Assembly (NCBI RefSeq): GCF_003019035.1 | Contig: NZ_CP027447.1 | Direction: 5' to 3' (one strand) | Length of the DNA stretch: 64,000 nucleotides | From: Escherichia coli | GTDB taxonomy: Bacteria > Pseudomonadota > Gammaproteobacteria > Enterobacterales > Enterobacteriaceae | Shown: in pieces, positions 26,933 to 31,809 of the stretch | How positions within the stretch are numbered: position 1 is the first letter of the stretch | How the letters are laid out: each line of letters starts with the position of its first letter | Program-made: the position numbers and the translations under genes | Notes under the pieces: model-generated | What the model was told of the DNA's origin: nothing | Seen by the model: the letters and a program-made list of their open reading frames with translations, nothing else | Database searches by the model: none

Positions 26933-27871
26933 TTACTGTAATTGAGTTTGCTGGATCAAGATTTCAACTTGTGACTGGCGAGGAATGGGGGCAACTGCGC
27001 CATAACCGGTTGTTGTCAGCGCAGCGGCGGCGTTGGCGTAGCACAGCGCCTCTTCCGGCGAATCACCTTTGATAATGCGGTAAAGAAAAGCACCCGAGAA
27101 GCAGTCCCCAGCCCCGGTCGCGTCGACGGTGGCGACTTTATGGCCAGAGTAGATGATTCGCCTGTTCTCATTGGCGAACATCGCGCCTTCCGCACCCATT
27201 TTTAACACCACATTCTTTGCCCCGAGCTGGAGATAGAAATCCGTAATTTCATCTGCATGATGCTTCCCGGTTAGCAAACGGGCCTCATCGAGGCTAGGCA
27301 TGCAGTAATCTACGTGGCGTATTGTTTCATGGATGATGGCGCGGGCGCGGGCTAACGGCCACAGTTTGAGCCGCAGATTGGTGTCGAAGGAAATCAGCGT
27401 TTGGTGCTTTTGGCACAGTTCAATAGCGTGAAAAAGCGCATCACTGACGTTATTGCCAATGGCGTGCGTGATGGCCGAACTGTGAAATAAGCGCGCGGCG
27501 GCAATCGCGGACTCATTGATATCATCGACCGTCATCGTAGAGGCCGCAGAGCCTTTACGATAAAAGGTAAAGTGGTGGCCTTGTTCATTGTGAGAAATAA
27601 AATAGATCCCCGTCGGGGCCATTTTATGCGTGCAAACCCATTGATGATCGACCTTTTCTTCATCCCATAATGCGCGGAATTTCTGCCCAAATATGTCGTC
27701 GCCAAGTCGGGTTAACATAGCAACTTTAGCGCCTTGTCGCGCCGCGCTAATGGCGAAATTCGATGTATCACCGCCAAATCCGCTGAGATAATGCTGCTCA
27801 GAATGCTCTGTGGGAAGCTGATTGAATTCAAAAAGCGGCTCACCAAATGAAAGAATATCGAACTGCTTCAT
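26933..27871 (-). CDS. PfkB family carbohydrate kinase, 2-dehydro-3-deoxygluconokinase-like (accessory cluster)
   Basis: ORF 26933..27904; likely start MKQFDIL at 27871, preceded by GGAGAA; PfkB motifs GG (SGFGGD) and VDATGAGDCFSGAF. Confidence 0.8.
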   Translation of the reverse strand: MKQFDILSFGEPLFEFNQLPTEHSEQHYLSGFGGDTSNFAISAARQGAKVAMLTRLGDDIFGQKFRALWDEEKVDHQWVCTHKMAPTGIYFISHNEQGHHFTFYRKGSAASTMTVDDINESAIAAARLFHSSAITHAIGNNVSDALFHAIELCQKHQTLISFDTNLRLKLWPLARARAIIHETIRHVDYCMPSLDEARLLTGKHHADEITDFYLQLGAKNVVLKMGAEGAMFANENRRIIYSGHKVATVDATGAGDCFSGAFLYRIIKGDSPEEALCYANAAAALTTTGYGAVAPIPRQSQVEILIQQTQLQ

Positions 27872-27936
27872 TACGTTCTCCATGTGATAGTCTAGGCTCG
27901 CCATCGGCCAGATTGGCTGATGGCGGCATAGGAAGG

Positions 27937-28593
27937 TTAGATTCGGCCGTATTTCGCCAGGCCTTCACGCAGAGAACCAGACTGTATAATCAGTTTGGCC
28001 TGTTCCAGCTCGCGGCTATCAATGGATTGTGCCAGTGCTAATACTTCTGCTGCGACCGCCTGCGGTACGCACACCACGCCGTCGATATCCCCGACAATCA
28101 AATCTCCCGGATTCACCGTGACATCGCCGATGGTGACGGGCTGATTGGCTGAAATTGTTTTGAAACGACCAAGCGTAGTGCCTGGGGTTACCGTTTTGGC
28201 GTAAACCGGGAAATCGTAATCGCGACGGATCTCCGCCAGGTCACGTACGCCGCCGTTCAACACTGCAGCTTCATGTTTATTGGCAACAGCCCCGGCGGTC
28301 ATTAGCCCGCCCCAGACGGCAACGGTTTCCAGCGACGGATTTCCGGTAATGACGATGACCGAACCGCTGGCGGATTCGTCAATGGCGTCCAGCGCATGCT
28401 GCGGTGGCAGTTTTTCGTCAGTGACGTCTTCATAAATGGTGACGGCCGGGCCAACGATTTTTTTGTCGTTGATGCGGTTTTTGATTTCAAAAGGCAGGAA
28501 CATCGTTTTGCCCAAGATCTGATCGCAGGCGTCAGCGACAGAAGCGGTCGAAAAAATAGTGCGAAAACCGTCGATAATATTTTTGCTGTACAT
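27937..28593 (-). CDS. RraA family protein, probable class II 4-hydroxy-2-oxoacid aldolase (accessory cluster)
   Basis: ORF track is N-extended; the internal start MYSKNIIDGF at 28593 has a GAGGAA ribosome-binding site; about 218 aa; family assigned by overall resemblance, not by search. Confidence 0.7.
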   Translation of the reverse strand: MYSKNIIDGFRTIFSTASVADACDQILGKTMFLPFEIKNRINDKKIVGPAVTIYEDVTDEKLPPQHALDAIDESASGSVIVITGNPSLETVAVWGGLMTAGAVANKHEAAVLNGGVRDLAEIRRDYDFPVYAKTVTPGTTLGRFKTISANQPVTIGDVTVNPGDLIVGDIDGVVCVPQAVAAEVLALAQSIDSRELEQAKLIIQSGSLREGLAKYGRI

Positions 28594-28624
28594 AACTCTT
28601 CCTCTCTTTATAGCGAATACTAAT

Positions 28625-29584
28625 TTATGGATTAACCCAATTAAGCGGATGCTCGCCTTCAAACGCCCGACGCACTTCATGCGCGGCTTTACTTTGCAAC
28701 TCGACCACCGACTCTTCGGTAAACCAGGCGGTGTGGTCCGTACATAAGGTGTTATCCATTTGCAGCAATGGACTTTTTGCACTGAGGGGTTCGGATTCAA
28801 AAACGTCGAGTCCGGCGGCGAAAATGCGCTTTTGTAGCAGGGCGTTGATCAGCGCCTGCTCATCGATAAGCCCGCCGCGTGAGGTATTGACCAGTACGGC
28901 GCTGGGCTTCATTTTGGCCAGTTCGGCTTCACCGATAAGATGATGGGTGTCCGGGGTTAGCGGGGCGTGAAGAGAAATGAAGTCCGCTTCACGGCACAGC
29001 GTATCGAGATTGACTCGCGTCACGCCTGCTTGTGAAGCCTGTTCATCGGTAAGTAGCGGATCAACTACCAGGATGCGCTTAAAGCCGAACCCTGATGCTT
29101 TTTGTACAAAGCAGCGGGAGATCCGGCCAAAACCGACGACGCCGAGAATTTTTCCCGCCAAGCGGAACATAGGTTCGCGCTGGCCAATTCCCCACTGACC
29201 ATCGCGAACATCACGGTTGCGGGTGGCGATACGGCGTGTTGCGGCCAGTAGTAACGCCAGAGCGTGCTCAGCAACATCTTCCGAGCCGTAGTCTGGTACG
29301 TTAGCGACGTAAATACCTTTTTCTTTGGCGGCCTGGCTATCGATATTGTCTACACCGACGCCATAGCGCACGATAACGCGGCATTGCTGCATCGCTTCAA
29401 TCATAGGGCGACTGACGGTTGCTTCGCGGACCATGATGGCGTCAGCATTGCTTACCTGGCGCAGTTTTTCTTCCAGTGAAGCGTTTGCTGGAACAACAAC
29501 AAACTGCGGATCCCAATCCTGTAAAATATTTTCTTCTGCAGAATAATTTAAATATCCAGGTTCAATAACTACTATTTTCTTCAT
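28625..29584 (-). CDS. D-isomer-specific 2-hydroxyacid dehydrogenase, NAD-binding (accessory cluster)
   Basis: 319 aa; Rossmann motif GVVGFGRIS; family resemblance to glycerate/hydroxypyruvate reductases. Confidence 0.8.
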   Translation of the reverse strand: MKKIVVIEPGYLNYSAEENILQDWDPQFVVVPANASLEEKLRQVSNADAIMVREATVSRPMIEAMQQCRVIVRYGVGVDNIDSQAAKEKGIYVANVPDYGSEDVAEHALALLLAATRRIATRNRDVRDGQWGIGQREPMFRLAGKILGVVGFGRISRCFVQKASGFGFKRILVVDPLLTDEQASQAGVTRVNLDTLCREADFISLHAPLTPDTHHLIGEAELAKMKPSAVLVNTSRGGLIDEQALINALLQKRIFAAGLDVFESEPLSAKSPLLQMDNTLCTDHTAWFTEESVVELQSKAAHEVRRAFEGEHPLNWVNP

Positions 29585-29699
29585 AATATCTACCGTTCTT
29601 AATTATAAAATTAAGTGTTTTAATTTCTACGGCTGTAGTTCGCCGCATCCTGAAAACAGAATGTGAAATTAATGAATGTTTTGTTTGTGGTTTATATCA

Positions 29700-31037
29700 T
29701 CACAGAGTAACGGGTTTGGCGTCCACGATAGCTATATTCTTTAACCAGCGGACAATTAATATTGTGACGATCCCGCCGATTAGCATAACCGCGCTTAAAT
29801 ATAACATCGGTGCCGAGTCGCTTTTTTCTAAATCACGTACCAGAGGGATGGTGTTTTGCGCGAAAAACCCCCCCAGATTTGCCAGTGAATTAATAATAGC
29901 AATGCCTGCAGCCGCCGTTGCGCCTGAAAGAAATTTCGTTAAATTCCAGAAGCAGGGTTGAATTGCAAATACTGATAATACAACGCCGCAAATACAGATG
30001 AAGCTAATAACCGGCTGGGCGAATGTCCAGACCGAGAGCAGCAGACATATTGCAGCGGTGAACATAGGTAATGCGACATTAATATAAGGATTCTCGGTAC
30101 GTTCTGGCTTACTGGTTATCCAGCGCAGCATGATGATAACCATCGCCCATGGGATCATATTGACCAGACCATTCATCATATCCGAGGCACCGAACGTTTT
30201 AACAATAGTTGGCATCCAGTAGCTGATACCGTAGGCACCAAAGCAGATGAACCCGTATACCAGCGCGAGGGCCAGAACACGCCAGTCGGTCAGCGATTTA
30301 CCCAGGCTATTGACCGATTTATCGGTGTTGGCATCCTGTTCGGCGGCCAGTTTTTTAATCAACCAGCTCTTCTCTTCCGCATTCAAGAAGCGAGCCTGTT
30401 CCGGTCCTTGCGGAAACCATAGCAGCACTGGGGCAATCAGCAGAAGTGCAAGCACCCCCGTCGCCAGGAATAACCACTGCCATCCTTCCAGCCCCATAAA
30501 GCCGTGCATGCTAAGCAGTGAGCCGTTAATTGGGGCACCAATCATATTTGCCACCATGCTGGCGGTGACTAAAAAGCCGACAATACGTGGACGATACTTT
30601 AAAGGGAACCATTTGGTAGAATAGTAAATTAGCCCAGGGTAAAAGCTGGCTTCGGCAACACCAAGAATAAAACGCAAAGTATAAAATGTTGACATTTTTT
30701 CGGTCCACGCCAGCGCCATAGTAATAACTCCCCATGACAACAGGCTAATAGTGAACCAGCGTTTAGCACCTACCTTCGATAAAATTAAATTTCCGGGAAC
30801 GCTAAAAACCAAATAACCGATGAAAAAAAGTGATGCGCCGAGGCCAAAAGCTGCTTCACTCCAGCCCAGGCTGTCTACCATTTGTAATTTAGCAAAACTG
30901 ATATTCTGACGATCTATATACGCCACGATGTACATCAATACCATCAGTGGAACAAGTTTCCTGGTTGTTTTTGTTACAATGATTTTTTCTAAATCATTTT
31001 TTGCATCCAGGGACTGTTGCTGTATTGAATGACTCAT
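29700..31037 (-). CDS. MFS transporter, anion:cation symporter-like (accessory cluster)
   Basis: ORF 29700..31103; likely start MSHSIQQQ at 31037; about 12 predicted helices; motif YIDRQNISFAK typical of organic-acid and sugar-acid permeases. Confidence 0.8.
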   Translation of the reverse strand: MSHSIQQQSLDAKNDLEKIIVTKTTRKLVPLMVLMYIVAYIDRQNISFAKLQMVDSLGWSEAAFGLGASLFFIGYLVFSVPGNLILSKVGAKRWFTISLLSWGVITMALAWTEKMSTFYTLRFILGVAEASFYPGLIYYSTKWFPLKYRPRIVGFLVTASMVANMIGAPINGSLLSMHGFMGLEGWQWLFLATGVLALLLIAPVLLWFPQGPEQARFLNAEEKSWLIKKLAAEQDANTDKSVNSLGKSLTDWRVLALALVYGFICFGAYGISYWMPTIVKTFGASDMMNGLVNMIPWAMVIIMLRWITSKPERTENPYINVALPMFTAAICLLLSVWTFAQPVISFICICGVVLSVFAIQPCFWNLTKFLSGATAAAGIAIINSLANLGGFFAQNTIPLVRDLEKSDSAPMLYLSAVMLIGGIVTILIVRWLKNIAIVDAKPVTL

Positions 31038-31161
31038 AACACGTGTTTCCTGAATAAAGTCATAAGATCTGGCGCTCGTCCTCACACCATTGCACGGAGA
31101 CAAGATTTTGTCTGCATAGAGACGCCGTTGTTTTAGCCAGTTGAGATATTATTACCTAAAC

Positions 31162-31412
31162 TGACATGTCACAAAGATATCACTCATTTTTTATGTGGCG
31201 ACAGGATGTGTAAAAACTTGCCGCTTTGATCACAATTAATGGCGATAAAAGTGCTTTTTAGTGTGATGCTTGTCACTAAAAAATGGGATGAATAATCTTT
31301 TTTGACATGTCAGATTTGGGGTTTGTGAATGCAATAAATCACACTGTTGCAGTGGGTTGGCGCGTTAATCATGGAATAAAGGATATTTTTTTATAACTAA
31401 CATGTCAGATTG
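31162..31412. promoter_or_regulatory. leader of the accessory cluster with three copies of the palindromic motif ACATGTCA (two are the perfect 10-mer TGACATGTCA)
   Basis: TGACATGTCA at 31162-31171 and 31303-31312; TAACATGTCAGATT at 31399-31412; all upstream of the MFS start at 31037. Confidence 0.5.
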
Positions 31413-31441
31413 TGGCCCTTGTCAGGAAAGGGCCAGCCTGA

Positions 31442-31771
<330 letters not shown>

Positions 31772-31809
31772 TTATTTTCCCCTCCCGACTTTCATTGAGC
31801 GATTTTCCT

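What the first reader, a model, noticed from the sequence alone, without database searches (positions are those of the whole stretch)
31162..31412. Three copies of the palindrome ACATGTCA in the cluster leader
The perfect 10 bp palindrome TGACATGTCA occurs at 31162-31171 and 31303-31312, and the related TAACATGTCAGATT at 31399-31412 (the last two share ACATGTCAGATT). All three lie in the 400 bp region upstream of the MFS gene, the first gene of the cluster in transcription order. Three spaced copies of a dyad in a promoter region is the classic signature of operator sites for a dimeric regulator, most economically the GntR-family protein encoded at the end of the cluster. A 9 bp A/T-rich inverted repeat (TTTTTAGTG...CACTAAAAA, 31255-31283) lies between sites 1 and 2.
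Basis: seen in the sequence. Interest (0 to 1): 0.5.

Follow-up and report, generated by a model that had tools for sequence, protein, structure and literature searches.

The report
Operator sites of a GntR repressor
The three ACATGT palindromes are real and are very probably the binding sites through which the island's own GntR-type regulator, together with a cAMP-CRP site, switches a rare accessory E. coli sugar-acid operon on and off. This is an ordinary kind of control element, though its sequence motif is atypical for the family and I found no description of it.

Summary
TGACATGTCA lies at 31162-31171 and 31303-31312, and TAACATGTCA at 31398-31407; site 3 and the A/T-rich repeat are off by one base in the finding. 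These are the only three matches with up to one mismatch in 64 kb. A 400-kb sample of the same strain has no perfect copy.

The window is an E. coli chromosome. A 5-gene island (MFS transporter, 2-hydroxyacid dehydrogenase, RraA-family protein, KDG-kinase-like protein, GntR/FCD regulator) sits between ilvC and ppiC in about 31 of 5426 complete genomes.

The sites belong to a 20-bp palindrome, AAATCTGACATGTCAGATTT. The same motif recurs in the regulatory spacers of orthologous clusters wherever the regulator's orthologue is linked to them:
- Klebsiella, Pantoea, Rouxiella, Atlantibacter
- Vibrio, Photobacterium, Pseudovibrio, Basfia
- Succinivibrionaceae

It also occurs in front of the regulator gene itself, and it held up on four hold-out loci.

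The proximal site abuts a conserved extended -10 (TGnTAnnTT), which is repressor geometry. The A/T-rich inverted repeat is a conserved CRP site, and a second, weaker one lies downstream.

The motif lacks the family's GT-Nx-AC boxes. I found no paper on it. This is a new member of a known kind, of modest interest.

The parts
31157..31176 (.). Operator O1 (core TGACATGTCA, 31162-31171), promoter-proximal. It starts 2 nt downstream of the conserved extended -10 and is predicted to cover about -9 to +11.
   Evidence: 21.9 bits. Position next to TGnTAnnTT is conserved in E. coli, two Pantoea, Rouxiella and Atlantibacter.
31298..31317 (.). Operator O2 (core TGACATGTCA, 31303-31312). It lies 141 bp upstream of O1 and 38 bp upstream of the CRP1 centre.
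   Evidence: 23.4 bits. Aligned with an equivalent site in both Pantoea leaders.
31393..31412 (.). Operator O3 (core TAACATGTCA, 31398-31407). It lies 95 bp upstream of O2 and begins 1 nt after the ppiC hairpin.
   Evidence: 24.9 bits. Conserved in Klebsiella spallanzanii and the Citrobacter MAG.
31262..31277 (.). CRP-like site 1, TGTGAtgcttgTCACT (centre 31269.5).
   Evidence: 9 of 10 consensus positions. Positionally conserved in Pantoea (cGTGA-N6-TCACA, TGaGA-N6-TCACA) and Rouxiella. CRP-like sites are also present in the Vibrio, Basfia and Succinivibrio spacers.
31219..31234 (-). CRP-like site 2 (weaker), minus strand TGTGAtcaaagCGGCA (centre 31226.5). It lies 43 bp downstream of CRP1.
   Evidence: The conserved block TTGTGATC...GCAA appears in E. 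coli, both Pantoea and Rouxiella leaders. Only the upstream half-site is close to consensus.
31174..31182 (-). Predicted extended -10 promoter element, TGaTATCTT. The predicted transcription start is near 31167, inside O1.
   Evidence: TGnTAnnTT sits 1-3 nt upstream of the proximal operator in five diverged leaders. This is inferred; no transcription start data exist. The alternative TTTACA-17-AAAAAT (31214-31186) is not conserved even in Klebsiella or Citrobacter.
29700..31037 (-). ACS-type MFS transporter gene (445 aa from ATG 31037), first gene of the regulated operon.
   Evidence: TIGR00893, 248 bits. The start is supported by alignment with the Pantoea starts. RefSeq annotates a start 48 nt further upstream.
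26933..29584 (-). Three downstream catabolic genes: CtBP-type D-2-hydroxyacid dehydrogenase (28625-29584), RraA-family protein (27937-28593) and KDG-kinase-like PfkB kinase (26933-27871 or 27904).
   Evidence: Dehydrogenase plus RraA is the conserved core next to the regulator in other taxa.
26130..26789 (-). GntR-family regulator, FadR/FCD subfamily (WP_000205685.1; probable start at 26768). It is the proposed binder of O1-O3.
   Evidence: PF00392 + PF07729; no equivalog reached. Orthologues co-occur with the motif.

Best explanation
O1, O2 and O3 are operators of the island's own FadR/FCD-subfamily GntR regulator. Each is a copy of an 18-20 bp palindrome (consensus AAATCTGACATGTCAGATTT) that a regulator dimer would bind, one half-site per monomer.

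The operon promoter is a weak, extended -10 promoter (TGaTATCTT, 31182-31174). It is helped by cAMP-CRP bound at about -59.5 and -102.5. O1 overlaps the end of the -10 element and the transcription start. Without inducer, the bound regulator would therefore keep RNA polymerase off the MFS-dehydrogenase-RraA-kinase operon. O2 and O3 add occupancy, and may do so through cooperative binding or looping.

An imported acid sugar, or a pathway intermediate bound in the metal-containing FCD pocket, would release the regulator. Absence of glucose supplies cAMP-CRP.

What is shown and what is inferred:
- Shown: the sites exist, are non-random and specific, and co-occur with the regulator and its cluster across distant taxa. 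The promoter-operator-CRP layout is conserved.
- Inferred: who binds the sites, the sign of regulation, the transcription start, looping and the effector.
For: - Specificity in E. coli.
- Cross-genus enrichment using only the E. coli 10-mer: P = 4e-14.
- Information in flanks that were not selected for.
- Almost all matrix hits in 646 kb lie in cluster spacers.
- Hold-out loci from Rouxiella, Basfia, Atlantibacter and a Logan contig: 18 of 19 hits in spacers upstream of the dehydrogenase, MFS, dctP, lactonase-like, eda or regulator genes.
- Sites in front of the regulator gene in Vibrio hannami and several Succinivibrionaceae.
- The DNA-binding helices of all orthologues are nearly identical, and the motif drifts only mildly.
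- TGnTAnnTT abuts the proximal operator in five leaders.
- CRP-like sites are enriched in the same spacers, P = 2e-4.
- The regulator has GntR plus FCD domains, and D136, H140, H184 and H206 are invariant.
- Precedent: DgoR is a FadR-subfamily sugar-acid repressor that binds inverted repeats overlapping its promoter and is released by its substrate (PMC11705089).
Against: - There is no binding, expression or transcription start data.
- The motif lacks the GT-N(2-3)-AC (TKGT/ACMA) boxes typical of FadR-subfamily operators (PMC4494728).
- O1-O2 spacing (141 bp, 13.4 helical turns) is out of phase for simple looping, and spacings are not conserved between genera.
- E. coli has no site in front of its own regulator gene or in the MFS-dehydrogenase spacer, unlike Pantoea.
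- Affinibrenneria has a 63%-identical regulator with no site nearby.
- Some family members, for example GlcC from my own knowledge, are activators.
Confidence: 0.8

Rival explanations
1. The local GntR regulator does bind the sites, but as an activator or dual regulator that recruits RNA polymerase from O2/O3 when loaded with effector, rather than as a simple repressor.
For: O2 and O3 lie well upstream of the promoter, at about -140 and -235. The core promoter is weak, with no good -35. Some FadR-subfamily proteins activate transcription (my own knowledge).
Against: - The best-conserved arrangement is an operator touching the -10 element and the start site.
- In Vibrio and Basfia a site sits 12-15 bp from the dehydrogenase start codon, inside the leader.
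- CRP sites already occupy the usual activator positions.
Confidence: 0.1
2. The palindromes are bound by some other protein, such as a host global factor or a regulator encoded elsewhere, and the cluster's GntR protein recognises something different.
For: The motif does not match the family's canonical GT/AC boxes. No direct link between protein and DNA was tested.
Against: - The motif follows the cluster through Enterobacterales, Vibrionaceae, Pasteurellaceae, Succinivibrionaceae and an alphaproteobacterium (Pseudovibrio). The GntR orthologue is the only regulator that travels with it.
- Sites occur immediately upstream of the regulator gene.
- No other good repeated palindrome is present in the leader.
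- The 464 kb of E. coli DNA scanned has no further intergenic site.
Confidence: 0.07
3. The repeats have no regulatory role. They would be chance, remnants of a mobile element or recombination sites left from the island's insertion, or RNA-level elements.
For: The island is accessory and replaces the K-12 ilvC-ppiC spacer. O3 abuts the junction-side hairpin.
Against: - Shuffles give 7 in 20000.
- There are no copies at the other island border and no flanking direct repeats or integrase in the window.
- The same motif appears in unrelated genomic contexts, always in promoter spacers.
- There are no Rfam hits.
- A 10-nt perfect palindrome with no loop cannot form an RNA hairpin.
Confidence: 0.03

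Closest known systems
E. coli DgoR and the dgo operator (GntR/FadR subfamily, D-galactonate operon)
   Same: - A FadR/FCD-type regulator is encoded in the same operon as an ACS-type MFS acid-sugar transporter, a 2-keto-3-deoxy-acid kinase and catabolic enzymes.
- Several inverted repeats overlap or flank the promoter.
- The repressor is released by the acid sugar bound in a metal-containing pocket (PMC11705089).
   Different: - The DgoR operator is TTGTAGTACAA (GT-N3-AC); here the core is CTGACATGTCAG, with no GT/AC boxes.
- DgoR is the first gene of its operon; here the regulator gene is last.
- Here there are three sites spread over 245 bp, not two adjacent ones.
- The regulator is not an equivalog of any named family member, and its effector is unknown.
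FadR-subfamily GntR operators in general (consensus TKGT-N(2-3)-ACMA; Suvorova et al. 2015, PMC4494728)
   Same: An A/T-flanked palindrome of dimer size, placed in promoter regions of the adjacent operon, often in multiple copies and with autoregulation.
   Different: The conserved dinucleotides are in the opposite order (AC-AT-GT at the centre, CTG/CAG outside). This motif would therefore join the family's non-conforming group, alongside NanR and BioR. The nearest look-alike in the paper's stored supplement is a HutC-type DasR variant site, TGGACATGTCCA.
CRP-dependent catabolic promoters with a local repressor (the lac, gal and dgo type of logic)
   Same: A weak promoter with an upstream TGTGA-N6-TCACA site or sites, plus a substrate-specific repressor whose main operator overlaps the start site and which has auxiliary operators upstream.
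   Different: CRP positions (about -59.5 and -102.5) and any looping are inferred from sequence only. The regulator belongs to the GntR family, not the LacI family.

Membership tests
GntR family, FadR/FCD subfamily regulator (the proposed binder) | N-terminal GntR winged helix-turn-helix (PF00392) plus C-terminal all-helical FCD domain (PF07729) | tested here: met
   Precomputed Pfam domains on the query cluster and all orthologues. Partial NCBIfam hits to PhnR, NanR, CsiR and LldR. The closest solved structures are GntR/FCD proteins.
GntR family, FadR/FCD subfamily regulator (the proposed binder) | Metal-ligand Asp and His residues of the FCD effector pocket | tested here: inconclusive
   D136, H140, H184 and H206 are invariant in 24 orthologues. 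Their mapping to the known ligands rests on my own knowledge and was not checked by structural alignment.
Named E. coli/NCBIfam equivalogs (DgoR, NanR, CsiR, LldR, PdhR, GlcC, PhnR) | Score above the curated equivalog cut-off | tested here: not met
   The best hit is TIGR03338 phnR_burk at 108.8 bits against a cut-off of 271.5. All others are lower.
Canonical FadR-subfamily operator | Palindrome carrying TKGT ... ACMA boxes with GT and AC 2-3 nt apart | tested here: not met
   In AAATCTGACATGTCAGATTT the only AC (positions 8-9 of the 20-bp matrix) lies 5' of the only GT (positions 12-13). The consensus definition is from PMC4494728.
Transcription-factor operator (generic) | Dyad symmetry of dimer size and multiple copies confined to promoter spacers | tested here: met
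   The background in 464 kb of E. coli DNA is essentially empty.
Transcription-factor operator (generic) | Co-occurrence of motif and regulator across genomes, including hold-out genomes | tested here: met
   P = 4e-14; 18 of 19 hits in cluster spacers. One exception is Affinibrenneria, which has no site and no cluster.
Transcription-factor operator (generic) | Direct, specific binding by the protein and an effect on transcription | not testable with these tools
   This needs EMSA or footprinting and reporter assays.
cAMP-CRP binding site | Match to TGTGA-N6-TCACA in a promoter-upstream position | tested here: met
   31262-31277 matches 9 of 10 positions. A single match is not significant on its own in 64 kb (4 found, 1.8 expected). 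However, it is positionally conserved in the Pantoea and Rouxiella leaders, and such sites are enriched in cluster spacers (P = 2e-4). Binding was not tested.
Mobile-element or integration repeats (att sites, MITE) | Copies at both island borders, an integrase or transposase nearby, and copies scattered in the genome | tested here: not met
   There is no copy at the ilvC border, no integrase in the window cluster and no scattered copies.

The most novel reading that the evidence does not exclude
The ACATGT-centred palindrome would define a previously undescribed FadR-subfamily operator class that lacks the family's GT/AC boxes. That would fit with Lys and Ser replacing the two base-contacting arginines of FadR.

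It would also mark the regulon of an uncharacterised, horizontally mobile catabolic route. This route would turn an acid sugar or lactone into KDG/KDPG using a CtBP-type dehydrogenase and an RraA-family enzyme. It is carried by under 1% of E. coli but is widespread in Vibrionaceae, Succinivibrionaceae, Pasteurellaceae and plant-associated Enterobacterales.
Probability: 0.5. Interest if true: 0.45.

Novelty: new member of a known kind. Interest (0 to 1): 0.3.

Why it matters
The result gives a ready-made, testable regulatory map (three operators, two CRP sites and a promoter) for an accessory E. coli metabolic island whose substrate is unknown.

The 20-bp motif is specific enough to trace the regulon in other genomes. 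There it adds a lactonase-like beta-propeller, TRAP or MFS transporters and eda. That gene content narrows the search for the substrate and for the role of the RraA-family enzyme.

The motif also adds a non-canonical example to the recognition code of FadR-type GntR regulators. It does not change any concept: local repressor plus CRP control of a sugar-acid operon is textbook.

Tried and rejected
- **Literature.** The motif string returned only primers and eukaryotic sequences. RraA + KdgK + TRAP + GntR returned nothing. ilvC/ppiC island returned nothing. RraA + 2-keto-3-deoxy found only FlDet, a distant RraA-family KDGR dehydratase/decarboxylase, not this cluster.
- **Suvorova supplement.** The stored part holds neither this regulator's helix sequence nor the motif. 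The file is truncated, so absence proves nothing.
- **Rfam.** Nothing in 30800-31800.
- **Sigma-70 scan.** It gave TTTACA-17-AAAAAT. I rejected this as the main promoter because the -35 is not conserved even in Klebsiella or Citrobacter, whereas TGnTAnnTT is conserved in five leaders.
- **Insertion-scar idea.** The K-12 spacer is unrelated and there are no border repeats.
- **Extra sites inside the E. coli island** (kinase-GntR and MFS-dehydrogenase spacers). None found.
- **Terminator and promoter scan of the island.** Nothing above shuffle expectation.
- **Whole-genome count.** This could not be done. Only 464 kb, about 9% of the genome, was sampled.

Full report
**What the window is.** The region is an Escherichia coli chromosome: ilvY-ilvC on the left and ppiC-rep-gppA-rhlB-trxA-rho on the right. 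Between ilvC (stop 26045) and ppiC (31442-31723, minus strand), K-12 has an 86-bp spacer. This strain instead carries about 5.4 kb of unrelated DNA with five co-directional minus-strand genes:
- an ACS-type MFS transporter (29700-31037)
- a CtBP-type D-2-hydroxyacid dehydrogenase (28625-29584)
- an RraA-family protein (27937-28593)
- a KDG-kinase-like PfkB kinase (26933-27904)
- a GntR-family regulator with an FCD domain (26130-26789)

Only 31 of 5426 complete E. coli genomes carry the leader region. The K-12 spacer shares nothing with either island border, and there are no flanking repeats.

**Checking the observation.** TGACATGTCA is at 31162-31171 and 31303-31312, and TAACATGTCA is at 31398-31407. 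These are the only three matches with up to one mismatch in the 64-kb window. TGACATGTCA is also the only 10-bp palindrome with two nearby copies. In 20000 dinucleotide-preserving shuffles of the 404-bp leader, a repeated 10-bp palindrome arose 7 times. Eight evenly spaced 50-kb samples of an island-carrying chromosome (strain SCU-301) contain no perfect copy. They contain six one-mismatch copies. The leader is therefore enriched several hundred-fold over background.

**The real extent of the motif.** The flanks of the three sites agree with each other when read in the right orientation (I1, I5, I7). I fetched 38 loci around orthologues of the regulator (42-100% identity) from one representative genome per species. 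The E. coli 10-mer recurs next to the orthologous genes. A matrix built from those sites gives the palindrome AAATCTGACATGTCAGATTT. Positions that played no part in choosing the sites are still informative: C5/G16 at 69% and A3/T18 at 69%. The three E. coli sites score 21.9, 23.4 and 24.9 bits, and the next best position in the window scores 10.8.

**Comparative test of the interpretation.** There are 30 hits with up to one mismatch, against about 17 expected. Sixteen of them fall in the 4.7% of sequence lying within 400 bp upstream of orthologues of the five cluster genes (binomial P = 4e-14). Most of the remaining strong hits lie upstream of additional genes that accompany the cluster elsewhere:
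- a second MFS transporter and a lactonase-like MRJP/SGL beta-propeller in Pantoea
- a TRAP transporter transcribed divergently from the dehydrogenase in Vibrio, Photobacterium, Pseudovibrio and Succinivibrionaceae

Several genomes have a site immediately upstream of the regulator gene itself (L040, L029, L034, L013, L012, L024).

As a hold-out test I fetched four further loci that had not been used to build the matrix: Rouxiella, Basfia, Atlantibacter and an unnamed assembly. Of 19 hits at or above 12 bits in 70 kb, 18 lie in spacers directly upstream of the dehydrogenase, MFS, dctP, lactonase-like, eda or regulator genes. The regulator is the only transcription factor that travels with the motif. 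Its helix-turn-helix and wing are almost invariant across all these taxa, while the motif drifts only mildly, for example to CTAAAATTTTAC in some Succinivibrionaceae. One exception was noted: Affinibrenneria has a 63%-identical regulator with neither cluster nor site.

**Anatomy of the E. coli leader.** I aligned the leader with those of two Pantoea species and inspected the Rouxiella and Atlantibacter leaders. A shared layout appears in otherwise diverged sequence. The elements below are given in the direction of transcription.
- **Upstream operator.** This is O2 in E. coli.
- **CRP-type site.** In E. coli it is TGTGAtgcttgTCACT, 31262-31277. The counterparts are cGTGA-N6-TCACA and TGaGA-N6-TCACA in Pantoea and TGTGA-N6-TCACc in Rouxiella.
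- **Second, weaker CRP-like block.** TTGTGATC...GCAA lies about 42 bp downstream (31219-31234).
- **Extended -10-like element.** TGnTAnnTT is TGaTATCTT at 31182-31174 in E. coli.
- **Proximal operator.** O1 follows only 1-3 nt later.

CRP-like sites are also present in the Vibrio, Basfia and Succinivibrio divergent spacers. They are enriched in cluster spacers overall (7 of 28 hits in 4.7% of sequence, P = 2e-4). One such match alone would not be significant in 64 kb.

Taking the conserved -10 at face value, transcription would start near 31167, inside O1. That places O1 at about -9 to +11, the CRP sites at about -59.5 and -102.5, O2 at about -140 and O3 at about -235. The consensus scan offered another promoter, TTTACA-17-AAAAAT at 31214-31186. 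Its -35 is not conserved even in Klebsiella or Citrobacter. In any case it would still put O1 at +3 to +22.

**Mechanism proposed.** The island's GntR/FCD regulator binds as a dimer to each palindrome. O1 occludes the promoter, O2 and O3 raise local occupancy, and cAMP-CRP is needed for activity. An acid-sugar effector bound in the FCD pocket releases the protein. The pocket residues D136, H140, H184 and H206 are invariant.

This is the logic established for DgoR. DgoR is a FadR-subfamily repressor that binds inverted repeats overlapping the dgo promoter and is released by D-galactonate bound in a metal-containing pocket (PMC11705089). The sites and their specificity, conservation and layout are shown here. 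The binder, the sign of regulation, the transcription start, any looping and the effector are inferred. O1-O2 spacing (141 bp) is not in helical phase. Spacings are also not conserved between genera, so I do not claim looping.

**Comparison with the family.** The protein meets the domain definition of the FadR/FCD subfamily but reaches no curated equivalog. It has no close solved relative. Its operator fails the family's defining pattern: FadR-subfamily sites carry TKGT...ACMA boxes with GT and AC 2-3 nt apart (PMC4494728). Here AC precedes GT at the centre, and the outer conserved bases are CTG/CAG. The same paper lists NanR and BioR as non-conforming members, so this is a further atypical motif, not a contradiction.

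A pairwise alignment with the FadR N-terminus places Ser39 and Lys49 where FadR has Arg35 and Arg45. It could nevertheless rationalise the different recognition.

I found no paper on the motif, the island or the regulator. The stored part of the Suvorova supplement lacks it.

**What the operon does.** This remains open. The invariant core next to the regulator is the dehydrogenase plus the RraA-family protein. The KDG-kinase-like gene, eda, a lactonase-like propeller and a transporter come and go. That pattern points to an acid sugar or lactone being funnelled to KDG/KDPG. The one characterised sugar-acid enzyme of the RraA family that I found, FlDet, is a KDGR dehydratase/decarboxylase (PMC8563752). 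It is distant and sits in a different context.

**Verdict.** The element is a normal kind of bacterial control region: a local repressor with multiple operators plus CRP. It serves an undescribed regulon and has an atypical motif for its family. I rate it a new member of a known kind, of modest interest.

Noticed in passing
window 31037-31085: RefSeq annotates the MFS start 48 nt upstream of the ATG at 31037. Only the 31037 start, with a GGAA ribosome-binding site, aligns with the Pantoea and Rouxiella starts. The annotated N-terminal extension is therefore probably 5'-UTR.
   Followed up: partly
window 26046-26129 and 31413-31441; L001 447-532: The island replaces the whole K-12 ilvC-ppiC spacer, including the hairpin after ppiC. 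It has no integrase and no border repeats. The same slot (rep-ppiC | island | ... ilvC) is occupied in Klebsiella spallanzanii, whereas in Atlantibacter the cluster lies next to a phage-type integrase. This suggests spread by flanking homology in Enterobacteriaceae.
   Followed up: partly
L004 4734-5344: Klebsiella spallanzanii has two tandem ppiC-like ORFs (98% and 68% identical to E. coli PpiC) next to the island leader.
   Followed up: no
window 27937-29584; L040 2201-6772; L092 1314-8938: A CtBP-type 2-hydroxyacid dehydrogenase plus an RraA-family protein form a conserved pair. They are variably joined by a KDG-kinase-like gene, eda, an MRJP/SGL beta-propeller (lactonase-like) and TRAP or MFS transporters. 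This looks like an uncharacterised acid-sugar or lactone pathway feeding KDG/KDPG.
   Followed up: partly
window 31413-31435: The hairpin just after ppiC (GGCCCTT...AAGGGCC) has no T-run on either strand. Read-through from ppiC into the island operon therefore seems possible. O3 begins 1 nt after the hairpin and could act as a roadblock; this is speculative.
   Followed up: no
L005 4638-4755; L006 7108-7224; L091 6204-6320; L093 5985-6112: Pantoea, Rouxiella and Atlantibacter carry two extra operators, and in Rouxiella and Atlantibacter also a CRP-like site, in the MFS-dehydrogenase spacer. The E. coli spacer (29585-29699) has none. E. coli therefore appears to have a single regulated promoter.
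   Followed up: yes
L007 10016-10657: Affinibrenneria salicis has a 63%-identical regulator with no linked cluster and no motif within 10 kb on either side. It may be an orphan or a re-purposed copy.
   Followed up: partly
L094 9355-9374; L087 17416-17435: There are isolated strong matrix hits inside coding sequence: 22.7 bits inside the regulator gene of an unnamed assembly, and 18.5 bits inside the mcbR pseudogene of E. coli SCU-301. They are probably chance but were not examined.
   Followed up: no
window 31098-31113: A small hairpin (AGACAA-AATC-TTGTCT on the mRNA strand) lies in the predicted 130-nt 5'-UTR of the MFS gene. It is conserved in E. coli and the Citrobacter MAG. In Klebsiella two bases of one arm differ (TT to AC), weakening the stem. 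These leaders are too similar to each other to tell whether the hairpin matters.
   Followed up: no
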